Positions 45,129 to 57,993 of a stretch of DNA of 64,000 nucleotides are shown here, in pieces. The notes under the pieces are model-generated. The model was not told the origin of the DNA, did no database searches, and saw only the letters and a list, made by a program, of their open reading frames with translations. The first letter of the stretch is position 1, and every line of letters starts with the position of its first letter. A program made the translations under genes and the position numbers. Source of the stretch: an uncultured Candidatus Saccharibacteria bacterium (GTDB lineage: Bacteria > Patescibacteriota > Minisyncoccia > Phycocordibacterales > JACOZG01); the NCBI GenBank assembly GCA_964399075.1, contig CAYNPK010000001.1, forward strand, positions 55,457 through 119,456, in the 5' to 3' direction.

Positions 45129-47975
45129 TCAAATCACAATATTAACCAATTTACCCGGAACATGAACGACTTTCTTAATCTTCTTATCTACTAACCATTT
45201 CTGGATTTTAGCTCTATTCTTAGCCTCAATTTCAATCTCAAGTGGCGACAATGACGGTGACACTTTAATAGTATCACGGAGAATTCCATTAATTTGAATA
45301 GCGATGGTGATTTCGTCAACAATGATTTTATCAGGATCATATTTCGGCCAAGGAGCAAGATGAATTGAGCGACTATTACCAAGCTCATGCCACAATTCTT
45401 CAGTTAAATGAGGAGCAAATGGAGCTAAGAGCTGAAGCATTAATTCATAATCCTGACGACTAATGTTCTCCTCTGTCTCCAGACTATTAACTAAAATCAT
45501 TAAAGAAGAAATCGCGGTATTGAAGCGCATGGCCTCAACATCCTCACTAACTTTTTTAATCGTTTGATGCAGAAGTAAGGTTAATTTTGAATTATCACTA
45601 CTCTCTTCTTTTTTGGCCACCTTGCTCCTTAAACGCCAGACTCTTTCCAGAAACCGCCGTGGGCCAATTAGACTCTCCGTACTCCAGGCAATGGCTTGAT
45701 CGAATGGTCCCATAAACATCTCGTAGAGTCGCAGAGTATCAGCACCATAAAGTTCCACAAACTTATCCGGATTAACCACATTGCCTCTTGATTTGGACAT
45801 TTTCTCTCCCCCTTCGGCCAAGATCATTCCGTGAGAAGTTCGCTTCTGGTATGGTTCACTACTCGGCACTAAGCCAAGATCGAACAAGAATTTGTGCCAG
45901 AATCGCGAGTAGAGCAAGTGGAGAGTAGTGTGCTCCATTCCACCGTTATACCAATCCACTGGCGTCCAGTGTTTTAACTTTTCTAAGGAGGCAAATGCAT
46001 CTATATTTCGAGAATCAACATAACGCAAATAATACCAACTAGAGCCAGCCCAATTAGGCATCGTGTCGGTCTCTCGCTCAGCTGGACCAGCGCAAGTTGG
46101 ACAAGTAGTCTTAACCCAATCAGTGATACCGGCAAGTGGTGATTCTCCGGTTTCTGTTGGCTGATAGCGTTCTACCGCCGGCAAAGTAACAGGCAAATCC
46201 TTCTCCGGCACCGACACCCAACCACACTTAGAACATTTAATCATTGGGATTGGTTCACCCCAATAGTGTTGACGAGAAAAAACCCAGTCACGAAGTTTGT
46301 AAGTAACTTTTTGTTGACCAAATTTATTAGTAATTTTTTCCTGCGCTTCTTCAGAAGCTAAACCATCAAATTCATTAGAATTAATCATCTCGCCTTCCAT
46401 AGAAAGAGCTGTTTCTGAAATTAACTGATTCCAAACCAGTTTTTGATGATCAGGGGTCAATCTATCAATTACAAGATCTTCATCTACCCATACAAGTGTA
46501 TGAAGTTTCTGTTCCGACTCAGCAATCACACCTTGATTCTTTAGACTATCAATTTCTGCTAATATTCCATAAGAAACCGCTTTTCTATTTTGTTTTTTGT
46601 GCGAGGCACAATATTTGGCTGCAGTGATCCAGCGTAATTTATTTTTAATAACAATTCCTTCAAGAGAGGCTTCTTCTTTTATCTCCATGAGTGCCGCCTC
46701 TTCTGGCGTCTGACCAGCCTCAATACCACCCATTATTGCTGTAGTAATACCTTCTAAACTCTCGTGCCAATCAAGTAATGCAAATTTGCCCGTAGACTTA
46801 TCACGCAAGTGGACAATAATTGTATCTCGCACAACTTCTTCAAAACCTTCACGAGGTGGATTTATTGAATCATCTTCGCATGGCATTATAACCTGCTTGA
46901 TAGGCAGATTAAATTTTTTCGCAAACGCATAATCTCTCTCATCGTGCGCCGGCACAGCCATCACGGCACCGGTGCCATACGACACCAAAACATAATCGGC
47001 GATCCAAACCGGAACCTTCTCTTGATTAGCAGGATTAATGGCAAAAACACCATCTAGCACAACGCCAGTTTTCTCTCGCCCTTCTGTGATGCGATCCATC
47101 TCGGTCTTAGTTTTGACTTCCGCTAAATATTCCTCCACCGCCGGCCAATTTTTAATTTGCGATTTCAATTTTTGAATCAACTCATGCTCCGGAGCTAATA
47201 CCACATAAGTAACCCCGAAGAGCGTGTCAGCCCTAGTGGTAAAGACTGAAACTTTTTCTCCAGAATCAACAATTTTAAATTCAAATTCCGCGCCGACACT
47301 TCGGCCTATCCAATGGCGTTGTTGAATTTTAATTTTCTCCAAATAATCTACCGTGTCTAAATCTTTATCTAATCTGTCAGCGTACTTAGTAATCGCCAAC
47401 ATCCACTGTTCCTTATCTCGCTTCTCCACCGGCGTCCCGCATCGTTCGCAATTCCCACTAACCACTTCCTCATTGGCCAAACCAATTAAACACTTAGGAC
47501 ACCAATTAATCGCCATCTTCTTCTTGTAAGCCAAACCTTTCTTAAATAATTGCAAGAAGATCCACTGCGTCCACTTGTAATATCCCGGATCAGTGGTGTT
47601 GATTTCTCGCGACCAATCAAAAGAGAAACCAAGCGACTGGAGTTGTCGCCTAAAAATATCAGTATTCTGCTTGGTAACAATCGCCGGCTGGACGCCAGTC
47701 TTAATCGCGTAATTCTCCGTCGGCAGACCGAAGGCGTCCCAGCCAATAGGATAGAGAACGTTATACCCTTCGGCGCGTCGCTTGCGGGCAATCACATCCA
47801 TTGCTGTGTTGCTCCGAATATGCCCGACATGCAAACCGTCGCCGGAGGGATAAGGAAATTCAATCAAGCAATAATATTTCCGCTTATCACTATTATCTAG
47901 AGCTTGATAAATTCCATCTTTTTCCCACTCCCTCTGCCACTTTGGTTCTATTTCTTTATGGTCGTAATTTTTCAT
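45129..47975 (-). CDS. leuS: leucine--tRNA ligase
   Basis: True start MKNYDHKEIEPKWQ at 47975. HVGH and KMSKSRGN motifs. Confidence 0.9.
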   Translation of the reverse strand: MKNYDHKEIEPKWQREWEKDGIYQALDNSDKRKYYCLIEFPYPSGDGLHVGHIRSNTAMDVIARKRRAEGYNVLYPIGWDAFGLPTENYAIKTGVQPAIVTKQNTDIFRRQLQSLGFSFDWSREINTTDPGYYKWTQWIFLQLFKKGLAYKKKMAINWCPKCLIGLANEEVVSGNCERCGTPVEKRDKEQWMLAITKYADRLDKDLDTVDYLEKIKIQQRHWIGRSVGAEFEFKIVDSGEKVSVFTTRADTLFGVTYVVLAPEHELIQKLKSQIKNWPAVEEYLAEVKTKTEMDRITEGREKTGVVLDGVFAINPANQEKVPVWIADYVLVSYGTGAVMAVPAHDERDYAFAKKFNLPIKQVIMPCEDDSINPPREGFEEVVRDTIIVHLRDKSTGKFALLDWHESLEGITTAIMGGIEAGQTPEEAALMEIKEEASLEGIVIKNKLRWITAAKYCASHKKQNRKAVSYGILAEIDSLKNQGVIAESEQKLHTLVWVDEDLVIDRLTPDHQKLVWNQLISETALSMEGEMINSNEFDGLASEEAQEKITNKFGQQKVTYKLRDWVFSRQHYWGEPIPMIKCSKCGWVSVPEKDLPVTLPAVERYQPTETGESPLAGITDWVKTTCPTCAGPAERETDTMPNWAGSSWYYLRYVDSRNIDAFASLEKLKHWTPVDWYNGGMEHTTLHLLYSRFWHKFLFDLGLVPSSEPYQKRTSHGMILAEGGEKMSKSRGNVVNPDKFVELYGADTLRLYEMFMGPFDQAIAWSTESLIGPRRFLERVWRLRSKVAKKEESSDNSKLTLLLHQTIKKVSEDVEAMRFNTAISSLMILVNSLETEENISRQDYELMLQLLAPFAPHLTEELWHELGNSRSIHLAPWPKYDPDKIIVDEITIAIQINGILRDTIKVSPSLSPLEIEIEAKNRAKIQKWLVDKKIKKVVHVPGKLVNIVI

Positions 47976-48894
47976 CTTGAATAGGAATGAGAGGGTAACG
48001 TTCCTGATCAATAGTTCTAGTAAAACAGGTATAACCTGTTTCGTGTTCCCAATTTTGTTGGACATCACCAAGTTGAGTTGGCCTCATTATGGCGGGAGCA
48101 GTATTATCTCGATTAGCAAGATTAAAATCAGCGCATAATTCAAATTCTTCTGGACCAAGCACTCGATAATCGTAAGCGACTCCAGTTTGTGGATCAAGAG
48201 GAATCTGATAATTAGAAATAGGGTCACTTAAATCCGTGAGAGCAAGCGGTAGAGAGTGTTTCTGTTGCCAATAATTAACAATCTGCCACTGAATATTTTG
48301 CAAATCATTAATTTTTCTCTCGTCAAAGCGCATTAGACGAACCGTCTGCGGTGAACCCATAATTACAAAACCGCCAACGATAGAGGCAATAATAACTACC
48401 AGAGAACTGATCGCCATTATTTTATTTAAGCGCGAATTTGTTTCATTCCTGCGTACGTCATACAAATAATAACCAAAAACTGCCATGGCAATAATCAATA
48501 CTGCTAGAACCTTAAGAATAAAGCGCGTGGTTATCTCACCGCCCAGAAAGTAATTAATTAGAGTAATAAGATTAATTACCAGAGTGACTCCAGCCACAAA
48601 TAAAGTGATGTAAATCAACCACTTACGGATCCACAAATCGCGCTTAGCCGGATCTTGAACATAATTACGATTTAAAAGCCAAGACAATAACACATAGAGT
48701 GGGAAAACAATCAAGAGCGAAGCAATAGACCAACGAATACCGGCAGAATAAGGATCAGAAAAATAATATTCCAATTGATCGGGAAAAGAAATATTGATAA
48801 TTCTAAACAACAAAGTCAGTAAACTAATAGTGCTGACAAACAAGGCGACAATAACGCCAAGATGCAAAAAGAAATCTTTTGGTGTGGTTTTCAT
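47956..48894 (-). CDS. hypothetical polytopic membrane protein with C-terminal soluble domain
   Basis: 4-5 TM helices then a soluble tail; 20-bp overlap with the leuS start. Confidence 0.4.
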   Translation of the reverse strand: MKTTPKDFFLHLGVIVALFVSTISLLTLLFRIINISFPDQLEYYFSDPYSAGIRWSIASLLIVFPLYVLLSWLLNRNYVQDPAKRDLWIRKWLIYITLFVAGVTLVINLITLINYFLGGEITTRFILKVLAVLIIAMAVFGYYLYDVRRNETNSRLNKIMAISSLVVIIASIVGGFVIMGSPQTVRLMRFDERKINDLQNIQWQIVNYWQQKHSLPLALTDLSDPISNYQIPLDPQTGVAYDYRVLGPEEFELCADFNLANRDNTAPAIMRPTQLGDVQQNWEHETGYTCFTRTIDQERYPLIPIQDEKLRP

Positions 48895-49910: not shown

Positions 49911-50129
49911 TCAAGAAGTCAATTTAGCAATCTCTGATTGATAAGAAGTCATAACCTCAATAGCGGCTTGTTGTTGATCCATTCCACCATCCACTTTAGT
50001 TTTAATTTCCCCAGCGATCTTCTTAAACAACTCTGGATCCTTGTTCATCATCTTAACGATAGCGTCAGCTTGCTCGCTAGTAGCGCCCTGCGAACGTAAC
50101 ATTTTTTTAACCAAAAAATCTTTAAACAT
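49911..50129 (-). CDS. small helical protein (hypothetical)
   Basis: 72-aa ORF immediately downstream of ychF; no motif. Confidence 0.3.
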   Translation of the reverse strand: MFKDFLVKKMLRSQGATSEQADAIVKMMNKDPELFKKIAGEIKTKVDGGMDQQQAAIEVMTSYQSEIAKLTS

Positions 50130-50136
50130 AATGCGC

Positions 50137-50164
50137 TTTACTTTATCAAAATTCTCGCTATAGT
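50137..50164 (+). promoter_or_regulatory. putative promoter (TTTACT-N16-TATAGT) for the PRTase-like gene
   Basis: Followed by a strong AAGGAGG RBS 7 nt before ATG 50207. Confidence 0.35.
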
Positions 50165-50206
50165 GGAAGTGGCGCTCTTTAACACCAAGAAAGGAGGTGA
50201 TAAAAA

Positions 50207-50665
50207 ATGAGCGAGAATCTCTTCAGTCCTGAGCAGGTAGGGAGAATCTTTCAGAATCCCGGCCTCTTGGATCAGGCAGCTAATGCGGTCGCCATGACCT
50301 CATATCTTCTAGCCCCAAACGTTGTTCTTGGTCTAGAAGTTGAAGGCTGTGCTCTCGCGCCACGAGTGGCGGGCATGATCCAAAGTCTTAGCCGGCAACC
50401 GGTAAGATTTGCTCTCGATCTCGGGAGTGGAACCGACTTACAAAATCAAGGTGTCTTGATTGTAAGCGACGATCTTCCCGACCAAAAGATTCGAAAGGGG
50501 GTCATCAGAAAAATCGAGAAACAAGGCGGTCGCGTGCTTGGCTTTGTCGCTCTACGGTCGAGCGAAAAGGAAGAACCACAACGGTCTGGGAGGTTTCCAA
50601 CAAGGGAGACTGACCCCAGGATTGAGGTCATTCTGAACGGCGCGGGAGCGAGTGGGAGAACGTAA
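50207..50665 (+). CDS. type-I phosphoribosyltransferase-like protein with degenerate PRPP loop; high GC
   Basis: VLIVSDDL...GGRVLGFVAL resembles the PRTase PRPP-binding motif (VxxVDDxxTTGxT) but lacks the TxGxT. Own RBS, promoter and terminator. Confidence 0.5.
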   Translation: MSENLFSPEQVGRIFQNPGLLDQAANAVAMTSYLLAPNVVLGLEVEGCALAPRVAGMIQSLSRQPVRFALDLGSGTDLQNQGVLIVSDDLPDQKIRKGVIRKIEKQGGRVLGFVALRSSEKEEPQRSGRFPTRETDPRIEVILNGAGASGRT

Positions 50666-50709
50666 GATGAAGTCAGGTCATTTTTCTTCATCCTTTCTGG
50701 GTAAAACAG

Positions 50710-50752
50710 AGCCCCACAAATACACTTCTCAATGTGGGGCTCTTCTTATTTT
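50710..50752 (+). terminator. rho-independent terminator
   Basis: AGCCCCACA-loop14-TGTGGGGCT followed by CTTCTTATTTT. Confidence 0.6.
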
Positions 50753-50771
50753 CATGTTAATATTTTACTAA

Positions 50772-50844
50772 GGGCCGTTAGCTCAGTTGGTAGAGCGCTC
50801 CCATGGCATGGGAGAGGTCACCGGTTCAAATCCGGTACGGTCCA
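50772..50844 (+). tRNA. tRNA-Ala (anticodon GGC)
   Basis: Cloverleaf folds by hand: acceptor gggccgt/acggtcc with G3:U70 alanine identity pair; anticodon loop atGGCat; T-loop ttcaaat. Confidence 0.85.
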
Positions 50845-50884
50845 CAGGTCTCAATAAATAAATTGTTTTATTCAAAAAAATAAT

Positions 50885-51451
50885 ATGAACAAACGAGTAT
50901 TTATAATTCATGGCTGGGGAGGGTCGCCAGAGGGTGCAAGTTTGCCATGGCTGGCAAAAAAGCTCAAAGAAAAAGGTTTTGAAGTCTTTGCGCCCCAAAT
51001 GCCAAATACTGAAAATCCCAAAATTGAAGAATGGGTTTCGCGTCTTGCAGGGCTTGTTGGTACGGCTGATGAAAACACCTATTTCATTGGTCACAGTATC
51101 GGTTGCCAAGCGATCATGCGATATATTCAAACAATAGATCAAAAAATTGCTGGAGCTCTTTTTATTGCCGGGTGGTTTGTGTTGGATAATCTTGAAGACG
51201 ATGAGGATCCTGAAATAGCGCGTCCTTGGATTGAAGAACCAATTGATTTTGAAAAATTAAAAGTTGCTTCGGAAAATTATACGCTTCTTATTTCAGACAA
51301 TGATCCTTTTGGTGGGTTTGAGAAAAATATAGAAGAATTCAAAAAGATGAATGCTAAAATAATCATCCTGAAAGGCGCTGAACATATTGAAGATGTCGAA
51401 TTGCCAATTGCATTAGAAGAAGTTCTTTCGCAATACGAGAAGCACCCTTAG
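50885..51451 (+). CDS. alpha/beta hydrolase (RBBP9/YdeN-like serine hydrolase)
   Basis: FIIHGWGGS, nucleophile elbow GHSIG; about 188 aa. Stop codon lies inside the tRNA-Val 5' end. Confidence 0.7.
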   Translation: MNKRVFIIHGWGGSPEGASLPWLAKKLKEKGFEVFAPQMPNTENPKIEEWVSRLAGLVGTADENTYFIGHSIGCQAIMRYIQTIDQKIAGALFIAGWFVLDNLEDDEDPEIARPWIEEPIDFEKLKVASENYTLLISDNDPFGGFEKNIEEFKKMNAKIIILKGAEHIEDVELPIALEEVLSQYEKHP

Positions 51452-51515: not shown

Positions 51516-51549
51516 CTAGAGGAAAAAGAAATGCTAATATTGTCACCAA

Positions 51550-51625
51550 GGGCCGTTAGCTCAGTTGGTAGAGCGCTACATTCGCATTGTAGAGGTCACC
51601 GGTTCAAATCCGGTACGGTCCACCA
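51550..51625 (+). tRNA. tRNA-Ala (anticodon CGC), CCA encoded
   Basis: Identical to the GGC copy except the 17-nt anticodon arm (ctaca ttCGCat tgtag). G3:U70 present; ends ...acggtccaCCA. Confidence 0.85.
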
Positions 51626-52181: not shown

Positions 52182-52775
52182 CTACTGTCGTCGTCTACGC
52201 ACCAGCCCCAGGAACCCGAAACTCATGAGACCAAGCGATGCAGGTTCAGGAATCGGAATGCCAGTGAGAATGAAGTCATCAAAGTGCATCCGATCGCCAC
52301 TACTGTCCATAACGGCCGTTAGTCGTAAGGTGAAATTGGAATTGTCATCCGAAGCGACAGGCAAGAGAAGCGTCTCAGGACGCCAAACTGTTTCGGCCTG
52401 CAGTCCTTCGTAAGCAACAAGCTGCTCCCAATCAATGTTGTTGTTGGAGATCTCAACGCGAATGATGTCTTCATCCAGCTCTATACTCTCCCTTACTTTA
52501 TACCAATACTTGAGGGAGATGTTATGATAGCCAGCTAAAGAGATTTGTCCCATCAACTCATCACCCTGTTCAAACCCAGCACTCCGGCCATAAATATCGG
52601 CACTGAATTGACCAGAATGTGCTGTTTCAGTAGTCGTTCTCCATAAGCCAAAATTTCCAGGGAACCAGTTAGAGAAATTCCCCGACTCGAAATCGTCACT
52701 CCAAATCACTGCCTGGGCCCATGTCGGAACGCAAACCAACAACAACACCGTCACTGCCACAAAAATCGTCTTCAT
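52182..52775 (-). CDS. PEP-CTERM sorting-domain secreted protein; high GC
   Basis: Signal peptide MKTIFVAVTVLLLVCVPTWAQA. C-terminus PEPASLGLMSFGFLGLVRRRRQ is PEP motif, hydrophobic helix, then Arg cluster. AGGAGA RBS. Confidence 0.6.
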   Translation of the reverse strand: MKTIFVAVTVLLLVCVPTWAQAVIWSDDFESGNFSNWFPGNFGLWRTTTETAHSGQFSADIYGRSAGFEQGDELMGQISLAGYHNISLKYWYKVRESIELDEDIIRVEISNNNIDWEQLVAYEGLQAETVWRPETLLLPVASDDNSNFTLRLTAVMDSSGDRMHFDDFILTGIPIPEPASLGLMSFGFLGLVRRRRQ

Positions 52776-53110: not shown

Positions 53111-53629
53111 TTAAGTTTGATTATTGTATAATATCTTAAGCTTGATAAGACCCCGATGCGCTTGCACGGCAACAGTATTTCTCGATTGACCCGTAATGAG
53201 AGCTATCTCTTTAAGCGAGAGATCCTGCGCATACCTCATTCACATCACTTTCTCGTATTTTGCCGGAAGGTACTTGATTAAGAGTAAGGCCACCTTACCG
53301 TCAAAGATGTTGGAAACGCGTTCGGAATGATCGAAACTTGGCTGAAAACCTTTTTCAAGAAGGACATCAAGAGAAGATGTCTTGTGTTTACGATATTCAT
53401 CAATAATCAGGTGATTCAGAATGTGGTACAAAAACGGCTTCATCAGATCAATCTTTCCTCCCTTAACGAGATAATCCCAAGTTTTAATGAAGGTGTCTTG
53501 AACCAAATCTTGACCAGTTGCATGATTGTGTACCTTGAAAAAAGCATGCGAATTCATCATTTTCCCATAGTCATGGTGGGCTACGGTCAATATTCCCTCT
53601 CGTTCAATTTTCTGCTTCGGAGTCATCAT
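53111..53629 (-). pseudogene. ECF-type sigma-70 family factor interrupted by a single in-frame TGA (region 2 in 53240..53629; region 4 HTH in 53111..53239)
   Basis: Upstream ORF ends ...LLIKYLPAKYEKVM-TGA and the same frame continues MRYAQDLSLKEIALITGQSRNTVAVQAHRGLIKLKIL. Together these reconstitute the canonical region-4 sequence (LPxxYRxVxxLRYxxDLSxKEIAxxxGxSxxTV). Confidence 0.55.
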
Positions 53630-57447: not shown

Positions 57448-57993
57448 TTATCTCCCTTGCTTCACCAACTTAAGCGCTAAATTTACTGCTTCTTTAGCGT
57501 TTTCGGCAACTTCAATTTTTATTCTGTTTCGGGCATCAAGATATTGGTCTCCAAGTTTTTCACTCCAACCTCCAGTATTTTTCAATACCACAATTGGAAT
57601 GTTCGCTTGATAAGCAATAGCAATTTCAGTAAGCGTACCAGAACCGCCATTAAGTGCGATAATAGCATCGCAACTTAAAACAAGGGTTAGTTCTCGGCCG
57701 CCACCACGTTCAAGCCCGCTTGCGATAACAACGTCCACATTCTTTTTTTCAAAAATATCAAAACCTTTTCCATAAGTTACGCCAACAGTAAGACCGCGGA
57801 CTTTCTTTGCTCCGCGGCAGGCTGCTGTTGAAAGAGAGTCGTAATCTTTTTCTGCGCCAAAAATTAGAGTTGCTCCTTTTTTCGCAACCCAATAGCCGAT
57901 TTCTTCCGCCAGTTTCTCAAATTTATTCGAATATTTAAGATCAGCAGCAGAACCCATCACTCCAATTTGCATTTTCCTTGATGATTTTTTCAT
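57448..57993 (-). CDS. TIGR00725/LOG-family Rossmann-fold protein (lysine-decarboxylase-like)
   Basis: GVMGSA...GGGSGTLTE resembles the LOG GGxGTxxE motif. Confidence 0.65.
   Translation of the reverse strand: MKKSSRKMQIGVMGSAADLKYSNKFEKLAEEIGYWVAKKGATLIFGAEKDYDSLSTAACRGAKKVRGLTVGVTYGKGFDIFEKKNVDVVIASGLERGGGRELTLVLSCDAIIALNGGSGTLTEIAIAYQANIPIVVLKNTGGWSEKLGDQYLDARNRIKIEVAENAKEAVNLALKLVKQGR

What the first reader, a model, noticed from the sequence alone, without database searches (positions are those of the whole stretch)
50137..50752. High-GC PRTase-like gene with degenerate PRPP loop, complete expression cassette next to tRNA cluster
It has a putative promoter (TTTACT-N16-TATAGT), a strong AAGGAGG RBS and a 9-bp-stem terminator.

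The 152-aa protein has the type-I PRTase core (VLIVSDDL, the acidic pair and hydrophobic strand) but lacks the TxGxT phosphate-binding residues. This suggests a non-catalytic or re-purposed PRTase.

Degenerate PRTases occur as effector or regulatory modules (for example ComF-like proteins and some phage-defence and retron-associated effectors). Its placement adjacent to tRNA genes is typical of acquired DNA.
Basis: partly seen in the sequence, partly recalled or inferred. Interest (0 to 1): 0.5.

Follow-up and report, generated by a model that had tools for sequence, protein, structure and literature searches.

The report
Rare dead-enzyme gene beside tRNA-Ala
A small, extremely rare gene in a Patescibacteria (candidate-phyla) genome encodes a protein with the phosphoribosyltransferase (PRTase) fold that has lost the residues this chemistry needs, so it is most likely a re-purposed binding or regulatory protein, not a nucleotide-salvage enzyme or a phage-defence gene.

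Summary
Window 50207-50665 (+) encodes a 152-aa protein with a conserved AAGGAGG ribosome-binding site, a promoter-like site and an 11-bp hairpin with a T-rich tail, just upstream of tRNA-Ala(GGC).

Pfam, NCBIfam, PADLOC and PHROGs give no hit. Three other tests point to the type I PRTase fold:
- **Profile vs PDB sequences:** four of the six marginal hits are PRTases.
- **hhalign vs verified PRTases:** E 1.5e-4, score 32.9 against 11.2±2.1 for shuffled controls.

The PRPP loop, the PPi-loop arginine and the flexible loop are replaced or missing. The acidic pair is not conserved in the only homologue.

That homologue (153 aa, E 1.6e-5) is the only one among 1.84 billion representatives. It sits in the same divergent arrangement with a 72-aa gene (p72), so this is a real, selected, very rare gene family.

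No reverse transcriptase, integrase or defence gene is nearby, so the retron/defence idea is unsupported.

The gene is absent from two relatives in which the tRNA directly abuts the 72-aa gene. Its 5' and 3' UTRs are complementary and are predicted to hide the ribosome-binding site in full-length mRNA.

Most likely it is a non-catalytic PRTase-fold pseudoenzyme. Its partner or ligand is unknown.

The parts
49911..50129 (-). p72: 72-aa helical protein of unknown family, first gene of the ychF-DUF5671-leuS string. It is the conserved divergent neighbour of the PRTase-like gene.
   Evidence: ORF list. Homologues lie upstream of ychF in 16 Patescibacteria loci. It is 51% identical to the gene divergent from P0002 in L083. 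No Pfam, NCBIfam or PDB family.
50130..50206 (.). 77-bp divergent control region. It is the best conserved DNA of the locus.
   Evidence: 72% identical (53/74) to the 75-bp intergenic region of L083. The p72 CDS is 60% identical and the PRTase-like CDS 45%. Shuffled controls give 47±7%, maximum 68%.
50137..50164 (+). Sigma-70-like promoter candidate TTTACT-N16-TATAGT.
   Evidence: Consensus scan, at chance frequency on its own. It aligns with TGTACT...TAAGGT in L083. Function is inferred, not shown.
50169..50210 (+). 5' UTR, left arm of an imperfect inverted repeat. It contains the Shine-Dalgarno AAGGAGG (50191-50197) and the ATG.
   Evidence: the repeat finder I1+I7. Its best non-self match in the whole 64-kb window is the gene's own 3' UTR, inverted (42 nt, 76%, E 0.001). 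Alignment.
50207..50665 (+). CDS of the 152-aa PRTase-fold protein (P0001). The confident core is residues about 20-117; the C-terminal tail 118-152 is low confidence.
50678..50717 (+). 3' UTR, right arm of the inverted repeat. It is complementary to the SD/AUG region.
   Evidence: In the predicted ensemble of the full-length mRNA, SD and AUG pair with 50676-50702 at P>0.95. They are free in transcripts that end before 50670.
50708..50752 (+). Terminator-like hairpin: 11-bp perfect stem, 14-nt loop, then TCTTATTTT.
   Evidence: the repeat finder I9. RNA fold of 50660-50775: -29.8 kcal/mol, z -3.2. It also forms in the full-mRNA fold.
50772..50845 (+). tRNA-Ala(GGC), co-oriented and 28 nt after the hairpin. 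In relatives L017 and L006 this tRNA directly abuts p72.
   Evidence: ARAGORN and Rfam. Synteny.

Best explanation
Window 50207-50665 is a real, expressed-looking protein-coding gene. It belongs to a tiny, fast-evolving family: two sequence clusters in public data, both in Paceibacteria-type Patescibacteria, and both divergent from the same 72-aa gene (p72) near ychF.

The protein keeps the alpha/beta core of a type I phosphoribosyltransferase, closest to the APRT/OPRT/XPRT group. It has lost the sequence signatures of most elements that bind PRPP and catalyse transfer:
- The 5'-phosphate loop ([ST]-G-x-[ST]) is LP-x-x-K-x-R.
- The PPi-loop Arg is Glu or Asp.
- The flexible catalytic loop is deleted or unrelated.
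- The acidic pair is not conserved in the family.

It is therefore most likely a pseudoenzyme. It would use the remodelled former active-site face to bind a partner protein or a non-PRPP ligand. That face is the best conserved part of the family (GCALAP, and VS..LP..K.R). The role would be regulatory or accessory, as in known inactive PRTase homologues.

Shown: the gene's existence, its conservation, the fold assignment and the loss of motifs. Inferred: absence of catalysis, a binding or regulatory role, and the identity of the partner (unknown).

Expression is probably from its own promoter in the conserved 77-bp divergent region. Translation of the finished mRNA is predicted to be damped by pairing of the 3' UTR with the SD/AUG. 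This is inference from thermodynamic folding only, and applies to this locus.
For: Coding and selection:
- One homologue (P0002, 153 aa, E 1.6e-5) among 1.84e9 representatives. Pairwise BLASTP gives 33% identity, E 4e-15.
- Same length, same strong SD, and the same divergent partner p72 at 51% identity.
- An open frame of about 152 codons is kept although the CDS DNA is only 45% identical.

Fold:
- Profile of the two sequences against PDB sequences: best hit APRT 4m0k, aligned over residues 20-139. APRT 9vlf, PyrR 4p84 and OPRT 4paw are also among the six hits, all in the same register.
- P0002 alone weakly hits NCBIfam APRT and PRTase models.
- hhalign against seven PRTases, each verified as PF00156: probability 52%, E 1.5e-4, score 32.9 against shuffled 11.2±2.1, maximum 18.9.
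- AlphaFold with two sequences: pLDDT 68.7 overall and about 85 for residues 20-117, with a b-a-b-b-a-b order.
- Foldseek against PDB: all top 50 hits are type I PRTases, best E 1.4e-4. This was already true for the poor single-sequence model.

Loss of catalytic signatures: alignments.

Precedent: the inactive APRT homologue of Thermus thermophilus binds AMP and activates glutamate dehydrogenase (10.1101/2025.10.31.685773).

Context: housekeeping genes only.
Against: - No function has been tested.
- The family has only two members, so conservation statistics and the AlphaFold model rest on a two-row alignment.
- Pfam and NCBIfam give no hit for the window protein even at E<=10. The sequence-only link to PRTases is marginal (E 0.1 against PDB sequences; hhalign probability 52%).
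- The conserved Cys48, Lys94 and Arg96 in the former active-site loops could serve a different catalysis rather than mere binding.
- No partner or ligand is identified.
- The predicted 5'-3' UTR pairing could not be tested in the homologous locus. That contig ends 28 nt after the stop, and those 28 nt do not contain the repeat.
Confidence: 0.6

Rival explanations
1. It is still an active phosphoribosyltransferase (a salvage enzyme) with an unusual PRPP-binding loop.
For: - PRTase fold.
- The window protein retains D88-D89 after the hydrophobic strand.
- Basic residues K94 and R96 are conserved in the loop that normally holds the 5'-phosphate.
Against: - The [ST]-G-x-[ST] loop is absent in both members.
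- The acidic pair is A-V in P0002.
- The PPi-loop Arg is Glu or Asp.
- The segment corresponding to the flexible catalytic loop (RK.GKLP...EYG in APRT) is about 25 residues shorter in P0001 and unrelated in P0002.
- Below every Pfam and NCBIfam threshold.
- From established knowledge of type I PRTases (the 13-residue PRPP motif), all characterised active members keep these elements.
Confidence: 0.07
2. It is the effector or regulatory module of a phage-defence system (retron type III-A3-like PRTase effector, ComF-like protein or a similar conflict system), acquired next to a tRNA.
For: - PRTase-like domains occur as retron effectors (PMC12746101, PMC7736814).
- The gene is lineage-specific and of raised GC.
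Against: - No PADLOC or PHROG hit for either member.
- No reverse transcriptase, retron ncRNA or other Rfam family, integrase or nuclease within about 10 kb. The neighbours are ychF, leuS, sigma-70, YceG, MnmA, a serine hydrolase, tRNAs and D-Ala-D-Ala ligase.
- Retron effectors are about 51 kDa, keep the PRPP motif (VVILTDTIGSGNQ), carry Gx14PNNxP and a C-terminal winged helix, and need the catalytic site. None of this applies here.
- The same gene pair with housekeeping p72 is kept in a second lineage.
Confidence: 0.03
3. It is a functionless relic: a decaying PRTase paralogue or an orphan ORF that is no longer under selection.
For: - Only two clusters among about 15 billion proteins.
- Absent from relatives L017, L006 and L085.
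- All catalytic motifs are gone.
- The C-terminal 35 residues are unconserved and of low confidence.
Against: - Two lineages whose CDS DNA is only 45% identical both keep an uninterrupted frame of 152/153 codons. For random sequence, about (61/64)^152 = 7e-4 per frame.
- Both have an identical strong SD and the same gene partner.
- Conservation is concentrated in structural-core and cleft loops.
- AlphaFold folds the core confidently from two sequences.
- The upstream control region is the most conserved DNA of the locus.
Confidence: 0.12
4. Origin rival, not exclusive of the best explanation: the gene is a small cassette bounded by about 40-bp imperfect terminal inverted repeats that was inserted between p72 and tRNA-Ala(GGC).
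For: - An inverted repeat at 50169-50210 / 50678-50717 brackets the ORF and is the best non-self match in 64 kb.
- Relatives have an empty site.
- Raised GC.
Against: - The left arm is the conserved 5' UTR of the gene in L083, where the first 28 nt after the stop do not contain the right arm.
- No transposase or recombinase nearby.
- No target-site duplication seen.
- No other copy of the repeat in the window.
- Both Logan assemblies show the same orientation.
Confidence: 0.12
5. The GC-rich stretch is really a structured non-coding RNA or a leader of the tRNA, and the ORF is incidental.
For: - GC-rich island next to tRNAs in an AT-rich genome.
- The full-length transcript folds better than shuffles, z -3.1.
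Against: - No Rfam family even at E<=10.
- The homologue is recognisable at protein level (E 4e-15 pairwise) while its DNA is only 45% identical.
- The predicted protein fold is specific.
Confidence: 0.03

Closest known systems
Type I phosphoribosyltransferases, APRT/OPRT/XPRT group (Pfam PF00156 Pribosyltran)
   Same: - Predicted alpha/beta core with the same strand and helix order.
- Hydrophobic strand followed by the loop-helix that holds the PRPP 5'-phosphate.
- G-x-E-x-x-G...AP..A 'PPi loop' segment resembling APRT's GxEARGF...AP.A.
- N-terminal helix aligned to the APRT hood helix.
   Different: - No HMM hit.
- PRPP loop, PPi-loop Arg and flexible catalytic loop are lost.
- The acidic pair is not conserved.
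- Only 152 aa; it lacks the first 25-30 residues of APRT that carry the base-binding F-x-D-I motif.
Thermus thermophilus APRTh, an inactive adenine phosphoribosyltransferase homologue (regulatory pseudoenzyme)
   Same: - Stand-alone PRTase-fold protein without transferase activity, used as a regulatory subunit (10.1101/2025.10.31.685773).
- Thermus APRT and APRT2 structures are among the fold hits (5zgo; 6fsp).
   Different: - APRTh still binds a nucleotide (AMP) and has a known partner (GdhA/GdhB).
- Here the phosphate-binding loop is replaced, and no partner or ligand is known.
- No detectable sequence relationship beyond the superfamily level.
PRPP-synthetase-associated proteins (PAP39/41), and the PurR and PyrR regulators built on the PRTase fold
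   Different: From established knowledge of these families:
- PurR carries an N-terminal winged-helix DNA-binding domain and binds PRPP.
- PyrR keeps the PRPP motif and binds RNA.
- PAPs are two-domain PRPP-synthetase paralogues.

The protein here is a single minimal domain with none of these additions.
Retron type III-A3 PRTase-like effectors (Retron-Eco11)
   Same: A PRTase-like domain outside nucleotide salvage.
   Different: The retron effector is about 51 kDa, has an intact and required PRPP motif, a Gx14PNNxP motif and a C-terminal winged helix, and is encoded next to an RT and ncRNA (PMC12746101). None of these is present here.
Fold-back inhibition of hok-type mRNAs (3'-end element pairing with the 5' translation-initiation region). 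Comparison from my own knowledge.
   Same: The predicted pairing of a 3' UTR segment with the SD/AUG of the same mRNA leaves nascent transcripts translatable but closes finished ones.
   Different: - hok is a type I toxin mRNA regulated by 3' processing and an antisense RNA. Here the gene encodes a 152-aa PRTase-fold protein, and no antisense RNA or processing is known.
- The pairing is only a thermodynamic prediction for a single locus.

Membership tests
Type I PRTase (PF00156 / PRT family) | Alpha/beta core: parallel sheet flanked by helices, PRTase topology | tested here: met
   - AlphaFold core pLDDT about 85.
- Foldseek top 50 all type I PRTases.

This is a predicted structure, not an experimental one.
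Type I PRTase (PF00156 / PRT family) | 13-residue PRPP motif: four hydrophobic residues, two acidic residues, then a loop with [ST]-G-x-[ST] binding the 5'-phosphate | tested here: not met
   P0001 has VLIV-SDD-LPDQKIR and P0002 has ILVV-SAV-LPPRKER. There is no [ST]-G-x-[ST], and the acidic pair is absent in P0002.
Type I PRTase (PF00156 / PRT family) | PPi loop with a basic residue after the first core strand (APRT: E-A-R-G-F) | tested here: not met
   Aligned residues are E-V-E-G-C in P0001 and T-D-G-C in P0002. The Arg position is Glu or Asp.
Type I PRTase (PF00156 / PRT family) | Flexible catalytic loop between core strands 2 and 3 | tested here: not met
   About 12 residues lie between strands 67-69 and 82-87 in P0001, against about 45 residues in APRT. 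P0002 has an unrelated Q-rich insert there.
Type I PRTase (PF00156 / PRT family) | Score above the Pfam or NCBIfam family thresholds | tested here: not met
   - No family hit at E<=10 for P0001 or in Pfam for P0002.
- P0002 has only 12-bit NCBIfam APRT/PRTase hits, against cut-offs of 175-184.
Type I PRTase (PF00156 / PRT family) | PRPP-dependent transferase activity | not testable with these tools
   Needs an enzyme assay.
Retron type III-A3 PRTase effector | Adjacent retron reverse transcriptase and ncRNA | tested here: not met
   No RT among the called genes or Pfam hits within about 10 kb. No Rfam family other than tRNA.
Retron type III-A3 PRTase effector | Intact PRPP motif, Gx14PNNxP motif and a C-terminal winged-helix domain (PMC12746101) | tested here: not met
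   At 152 aa there is no room for a wHTH domain. There is no PNNxP in the sequence and no PADLOC hit.
ComF/ComFC-like competence PRTase | N-terminal Cys-rich zinc finger plus a PRTase domain with a PRPP motif (own knowledge of the family) | tested here: not met
   P0001 has a single Cys (C48). The PRPP motif is absent. No Pfam or NCBIfam hit.
tRNA-targeted genomic island | Integrase gene, insertion at the 3' end of a tRNA, and a direct repeat of the tRNA 3' end | tested here: not met
   - The gene lies 5' of tRNA-Ala(GGC).
- No integrase.
- The only tRNA-derived direct repeats are the neighbouring tRNA genes themselves: a second tRNA-Ala gene (D1) and, over 22 nt, tRNA-Val (D2).
Regulatory PRTase-fold pseudoenzymes (functional class, for example Thermus APRTh) | PRTase fold with loss of catalysis, plus a defined partner or ligand | tested here: inconclusive
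   The fold and the motif loss are shown. A partner or ligand cannot be tested here.

The most novel reading that the evidence does not exclude
This is a minimal, previously undescribed family of PRTase-fold pseudoenzymes confined to a few Paceibacteria. Its remodelled cleft (invariant G-C-A-L-A-P and V-S-x-x-L-P-x-x-K-x-R) binds a new ligand or partner.

It would work together with the co-conserved divergent 72-aa gene at the head of the ychF-leuS string. In this genome its own mRNA would be self-limiting, because a 3'-UTR anti-SD segment folds back on the ribosome-binding site.
Probability: 0.12. Interest if true: 0.55.

Novelty: new variant of a known kind. Interest (0 to 1): 0.3.

Why it matters
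If the reading is right, this is one more case of a core metabolic fold recycled as a non-catalytic module. Here it occurs in an ultra-small symbiotic bacterium that depends on nucleotide salvage.

It is also a clean example of how far a PRTase can drift. It is invisible to Pfam and NCBIfam and has only two clusters in about 15 billion proteins, yet it stays recognisable by structure prediction.

Practically, it shows that this ORF should not be annotated as a salvage enzyme or as a defence effector.

The predicted 3'-UTR/SD fold-back and the very conserved divergent control region give a small, testable system for gene regulation in Patescibacteria, where almost nothing is known experimentally. 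Without a partner or ligand, the biological importance remains modest.

Tried and rejected
- **Family libraries.** Pfam, NCBIfam, PADLOC and PHROGs scans of both family members gave nothing usable.
- **Hidden RNA gene.** Rfam at gathering threshold and at E<=10 found only tRNAs.
- **More homologues.**
  - The word-indexed search with the single sequence and with the two-sequence profile found only the two known clusters.
  - The full HMMER scan found one homologue.
  - Back-translated scans of JGI metagenome contigs and IMG/VR viral contigs found none.
  - tblastn against 80 ychF loci gave one chance hit (L037, E 0.054) inside an unrelated 243-aa ORF.
- **More p72 contexts.** A 21-base p72 start pattern in metagenome contigs gave one locus (L085) with p72 in a different context and no PRTase-like gene.
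- **PRTase controls from the fetched loci.** A regex for canonical PRPP motifs in all fetched loci found none. I therefore used seven textbook PRTase sequences recalled from memory, after verifying each as PF00156 (an eighth verified sequence, Upp, was left out of the alignment).
- **AFDB fold search.** The library was not available.
- **Terminator scan.** It found nothing because of its loop-length limit. The hairpin was confirmed by folding and by the repeat search instead.
- **RNA duplex energy of the two UTRs.** It ranks top among same-geometry pairs on the minus strand, but about ten other places reach similar energies. Energy alone is therefore not decisive. The sequence-level inverted repeat is the stronger evidence.
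- **Invertible or mobile cassette.** Rejected as the main reading: there is no recombinase, the right arm is missing in L083, and both assemblies have one orientation.
- **Antisense 81-aa ORF (50446-50691).** Considered and set aside: its SD-like sequence abuts the ATG, and it was not called in the public assemblies.
Full report
**What is there**

The stretch 50137-50752 contains one clear ORF, 50207-50665 on the + strand, 152 aa.
- AAGGAGG lies at 50191-50197, nine bases before the ATG.
- A sigma-70-like match, TTTACT-N16-TATAGT, lies at 50137-50164.
- A perfect 11-bp stem (50708-50718 / 50733-50743, 14-nt loop) is followed by TCTTATTTT.
- tRNA-Ala(GGC) follows at 50772-50845. A serine-hydrolase gene comes next, then tRNA-Val(CAC) and tRNA-Ala(CGC).
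- The ORF is 52.5% GC in a 40.9% window. ORFs of at least 200 aa average 41.1±4.6%. GC3 is 50% against 36±9%. This is raised but not extreme.
- The promoter-like match by itself is at chance frequency (5 found, 3.2 expected).

**Organism and context**

The best ychF relatives are Patescibacteria / Paceibacterota MAGs at no more than 66% identity. The gene string on the minus strand is housekeeping: p72, ychF, DUF5671, leuS, sigma-70, DUF8128, YceG, an RNase T-like gene and mnmA.

Downstream lie tRNAs, a PEP-CTERM protein, an ECF sigma factor, a PAS protein, YGGT, a D-Ala-D-Ala carboxypeptidase, a SLOG protein and D-Ala-D-Ala ligase. There is no reverse transcriptase, integrase, nuclease or other defence gene. 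No Rfam family other than tRNA matches, even at E<=10.

**Is it a real gene?**

It is nearly an orphan.
- The word-indexed search of 5.8 billion clusters finds only itself, in a singleton cluster seen in NCBI and in two Logan assemblies.
- The exhaustive HMMER scan of 1.84 billion representatives finds exactly one homologue, P0002 (153 aa, E 1.6e-5). Pairwise BLASTP gives 33% identity, E 4e-15.
- A profile of the two sequences finds nothing more. Scans of metagenome and viral contigs also find nothing.

P0002 sits on 777-nt ENA contigs, divergent from a gene 51% identical to the window's p72. The spacing is almost the same (75 against 77 bp) and the GAAAGGAGGTGA ribosome-binding site is identical.

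The intergenic region is 72% identical between the two loci. That is more than the p72 CDS (60%) or the ORF CDS (45%), and above every one of 200 shuffles (47±7%, maximum 68%).

Two lineages this far apart keep an uninterrupted frame of the same length, the same SD and the same partner. I take that as good evidence for a selected protein-coding gene.

**What is the protein?**

Pfam and NCBIfam return nothing for it at E<=10. Phmmer against PDB sequences is uninformative. Once the homologue is added, the picture sharpens.
- The two-sequence profile's six marginal PDB hits include APRT 4m0k (E 0.1, aligned across residues 20-139 of the profile and 50-175 of the enzyme), APRT 9vlf, PyrR 4p84 and OPRT 4paw. 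All four are in one register.
- P0002 alone touches NCBIfam APRT and PRTase models at E about 0.12.
- I recalled eight textbook PRTases and verified each as PF00156. I aligned seven of them, leaving out Upp. hhalign against this alignment gives probability 52%, E 1.5e-4, score 32.9.
- 200 column-shuffled versions of the query give 11.2±2.1, maximum 18.9. The reversed query gives 15.3.
- AlphaFold with the two-row alignment gives pLDDT 68.7 overall and about 85 for residues 20-117. The order is H-H-E-H-E-E-H-E.
- Foldseek against the PDB returns only type I PRTases in the top 50, best E 1.4e-4. The poor single-sequence model (pLDDT 40) did the same.

This is a type I PRTase fold, nearest the APRT/OPRT/XPRT group.

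**How degenerate is it?**

In the alignments:
- The strand-loop VLIV-SDD-LPDQKIR (P0001) / ILVV-SAV-LPPRKER (P0002) faces VLVV-DD-LLATGGT of APRT. The phosphate-binding [ST]-G-x-[ST] is gone in both.
- The PPi-loop Arg (E-A-R-G-F) is Glu or Asp.
- The RK.GKLP...EYG flexible-loop region is about 25 residues shorter in P0001, and is replaced by an unrelated Q-rich insert in P0002.
- The N-terminal base-binding F-x-D-I segment of APRT is not present.

What is invariant between the two members lies mostly in the two former active-site loops: G42-L-x-x-x-G47-C-A-L-A-P52, and V86-S-x-x-L90-P-x-x-K94-x-R96. Cys48 is the only cysteine of P0001.

I infer that the cleft is still used, but not for PRPP chemistry.

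**Most likely mechanism**

It is most likely a non-catalytic PRTase-fold protein that binds a partner protein or a non-PRPP ligand through the remodelled cleft or dimer face. Its role would be accessory or regulatory.

The fold, the motif loss and the conservation are shown. 'Non-catalytic' and 'regulatory' are inferences, and the partner is unknown. p72 is only a candidate, by conserved divergent linkage.

**Defence or retron idea**

Not supported.
- Neither member hits PADLOC or PHROGs.
- No RT or ncRNA is nearby.
- The characterised retron PRTase effector (Retron-Eco11) is a 51-kDa protein with an intact and required PRPP motif, a Gx14PNNxP motif and a C-terminal winged helix (PMC12746101). 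None of these is present here.

**Acquired DNA?**

Partly supported.
- In L017 and L006, whose p72 is 51% and 44% identical to the window's, tRNA-Ala(GGC) lies divergently right next to p72. The gaps are about 130 and 52 bp, with no ORF and no recognisable remnant.
- In the window the gap is 642 bp and holds this gene. The gene is therefore patchy: gained or lost.
- The L083 lineage has it in the same place relative to p72. The gene lies on the 5' side of the tRNA, and there is no integrase or repeated tRNA end.
- Other relatives, and the one extra metagenome locus L085, have p72 in other contexts.

**An unexpected feature**

The 5' UTR (50169-50210, including SD and ATG) and the 3' UTR (50678-50717) form an imperfect inverted repeat (repeat finder I1+I7).
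- It is the best non-self match of the upstream region in the whole window on either strand: 42 nt, 76%, E 0.001 (alignment).
- The motif GTGGSGCTCT occurs exactly only at 50169 (+), 50708 (-) and 50734 (+) in 64 kb.
- Folding the full transcript puts SD and AUG in a long-range helix with 50676-50702, in both the MFE and the centroid structure.
- Pair probabilities exceed 0.95. In transcripts ending before the 3' UTR, the core AAAGGA of the SD is unpaired.
- Duplex energy alone is not unique: about ten other places in the window reach similar values.
- The homologous contig ends 28 nt after the stop without the repeat.

I report this as a prediction: finished mRNAs would be closed to new ribosomes. 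It is not established regulation. A transposon-like or invertible-cassette reading is less likely, because there is no recombinase, both assemblies show one orientation, and the left arm is simply the conserved 5' UTR.

**Verdict**

This is a new and very small family within a known fold and a known theme (PRTase-fold pseudoenzymes). It is of moderate-to-low general interest until a partner or ligand is found.

Noticed in passing
window 45129-48071 (-); L016, L006, L030, L011, L018, L017: The leucyl-tRNA synthetase carries an inserted NUDIX domain (PF00293, 23.9 bits against cut-off 21.1, residues 444-545, after the editing domain).

Homologous inserts occur in-frame in LeuRS of some relatives, but at a different site in L016 and L006 (near residue 205-217). 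In L017 a serine-hydrolase-like segment, homologous to the window's free-standing gene 50885-51451, sits in-frame inside LeuRS near residue 233.

Variable domain insertions in a Patescibacteria LeuRS look worth a separate study.
   Followed up: partly
window 53111-53629 (-): An ECF-type sigma factor gene (Sigma70_r2 hit) is interrupted by a single in-frame TGA (..EKVM * MRYAQDLSLKEIA..). The region-4-like part continues in the same frame. This could be a pseudogene, a sequencing error or stop-codon read-through.
   Followed up: partly
window 52182-52775 (-): A 197-aa secreted-looking protein ends in a PEP-CTERM sorting motif (PF07589, 26.1 bits). This is unexpected in a Patescibacteria genome, where an exosortase partner would be needed.
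   Followed up: no
window 50767-50845 and 51545-51623: tRNA-Ala(GGC) and tRNA-Ala(CGC) are 91% identical over 79 nt, including 5 nt upstream, and differ essentially in the anticodon arm. They look like a recent duplicate. Both Logan contigs carrying the gene break inside the first tRNA, probably because of this repeat.
   Followed up: partly
window 49911-50129 (-) and 16 related loci: p72 is a conserved 70-80-aa all-helical protein (N-terminus MF.DF..K.ML) found in the same orientation a short distance upstream of ychF in many Paceibacteria, directly adjacent in several of them. It matches no Pfam, NCBIfam or PDB family. No Shine-Dalgarno is visible before its ATG, and a -10-like TAAAGT lies about 10 nt upstream, so it may be leaderless.
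   Followed up: partly
window 50446-50691 (-): An 81-aa antisense ORF overlaps the 3' third of the PRTase-like gene. It starts inside the right repeat arm with an SD-like AAAGGA that directly abuts its ATG. It was not called in the public assemblies and is probably spurious.
   Followed up: partly
window 57448-57993 (-): A SLOG cluster-4 (LDcluster4, LOG-like) protein lies next to tRNA-Ala(UGC) and D-Ala-D-Ala ligase. It is a nucleotide-binding family sometimes tied to conflict systems, but here it stands alone.
   Followed up: no
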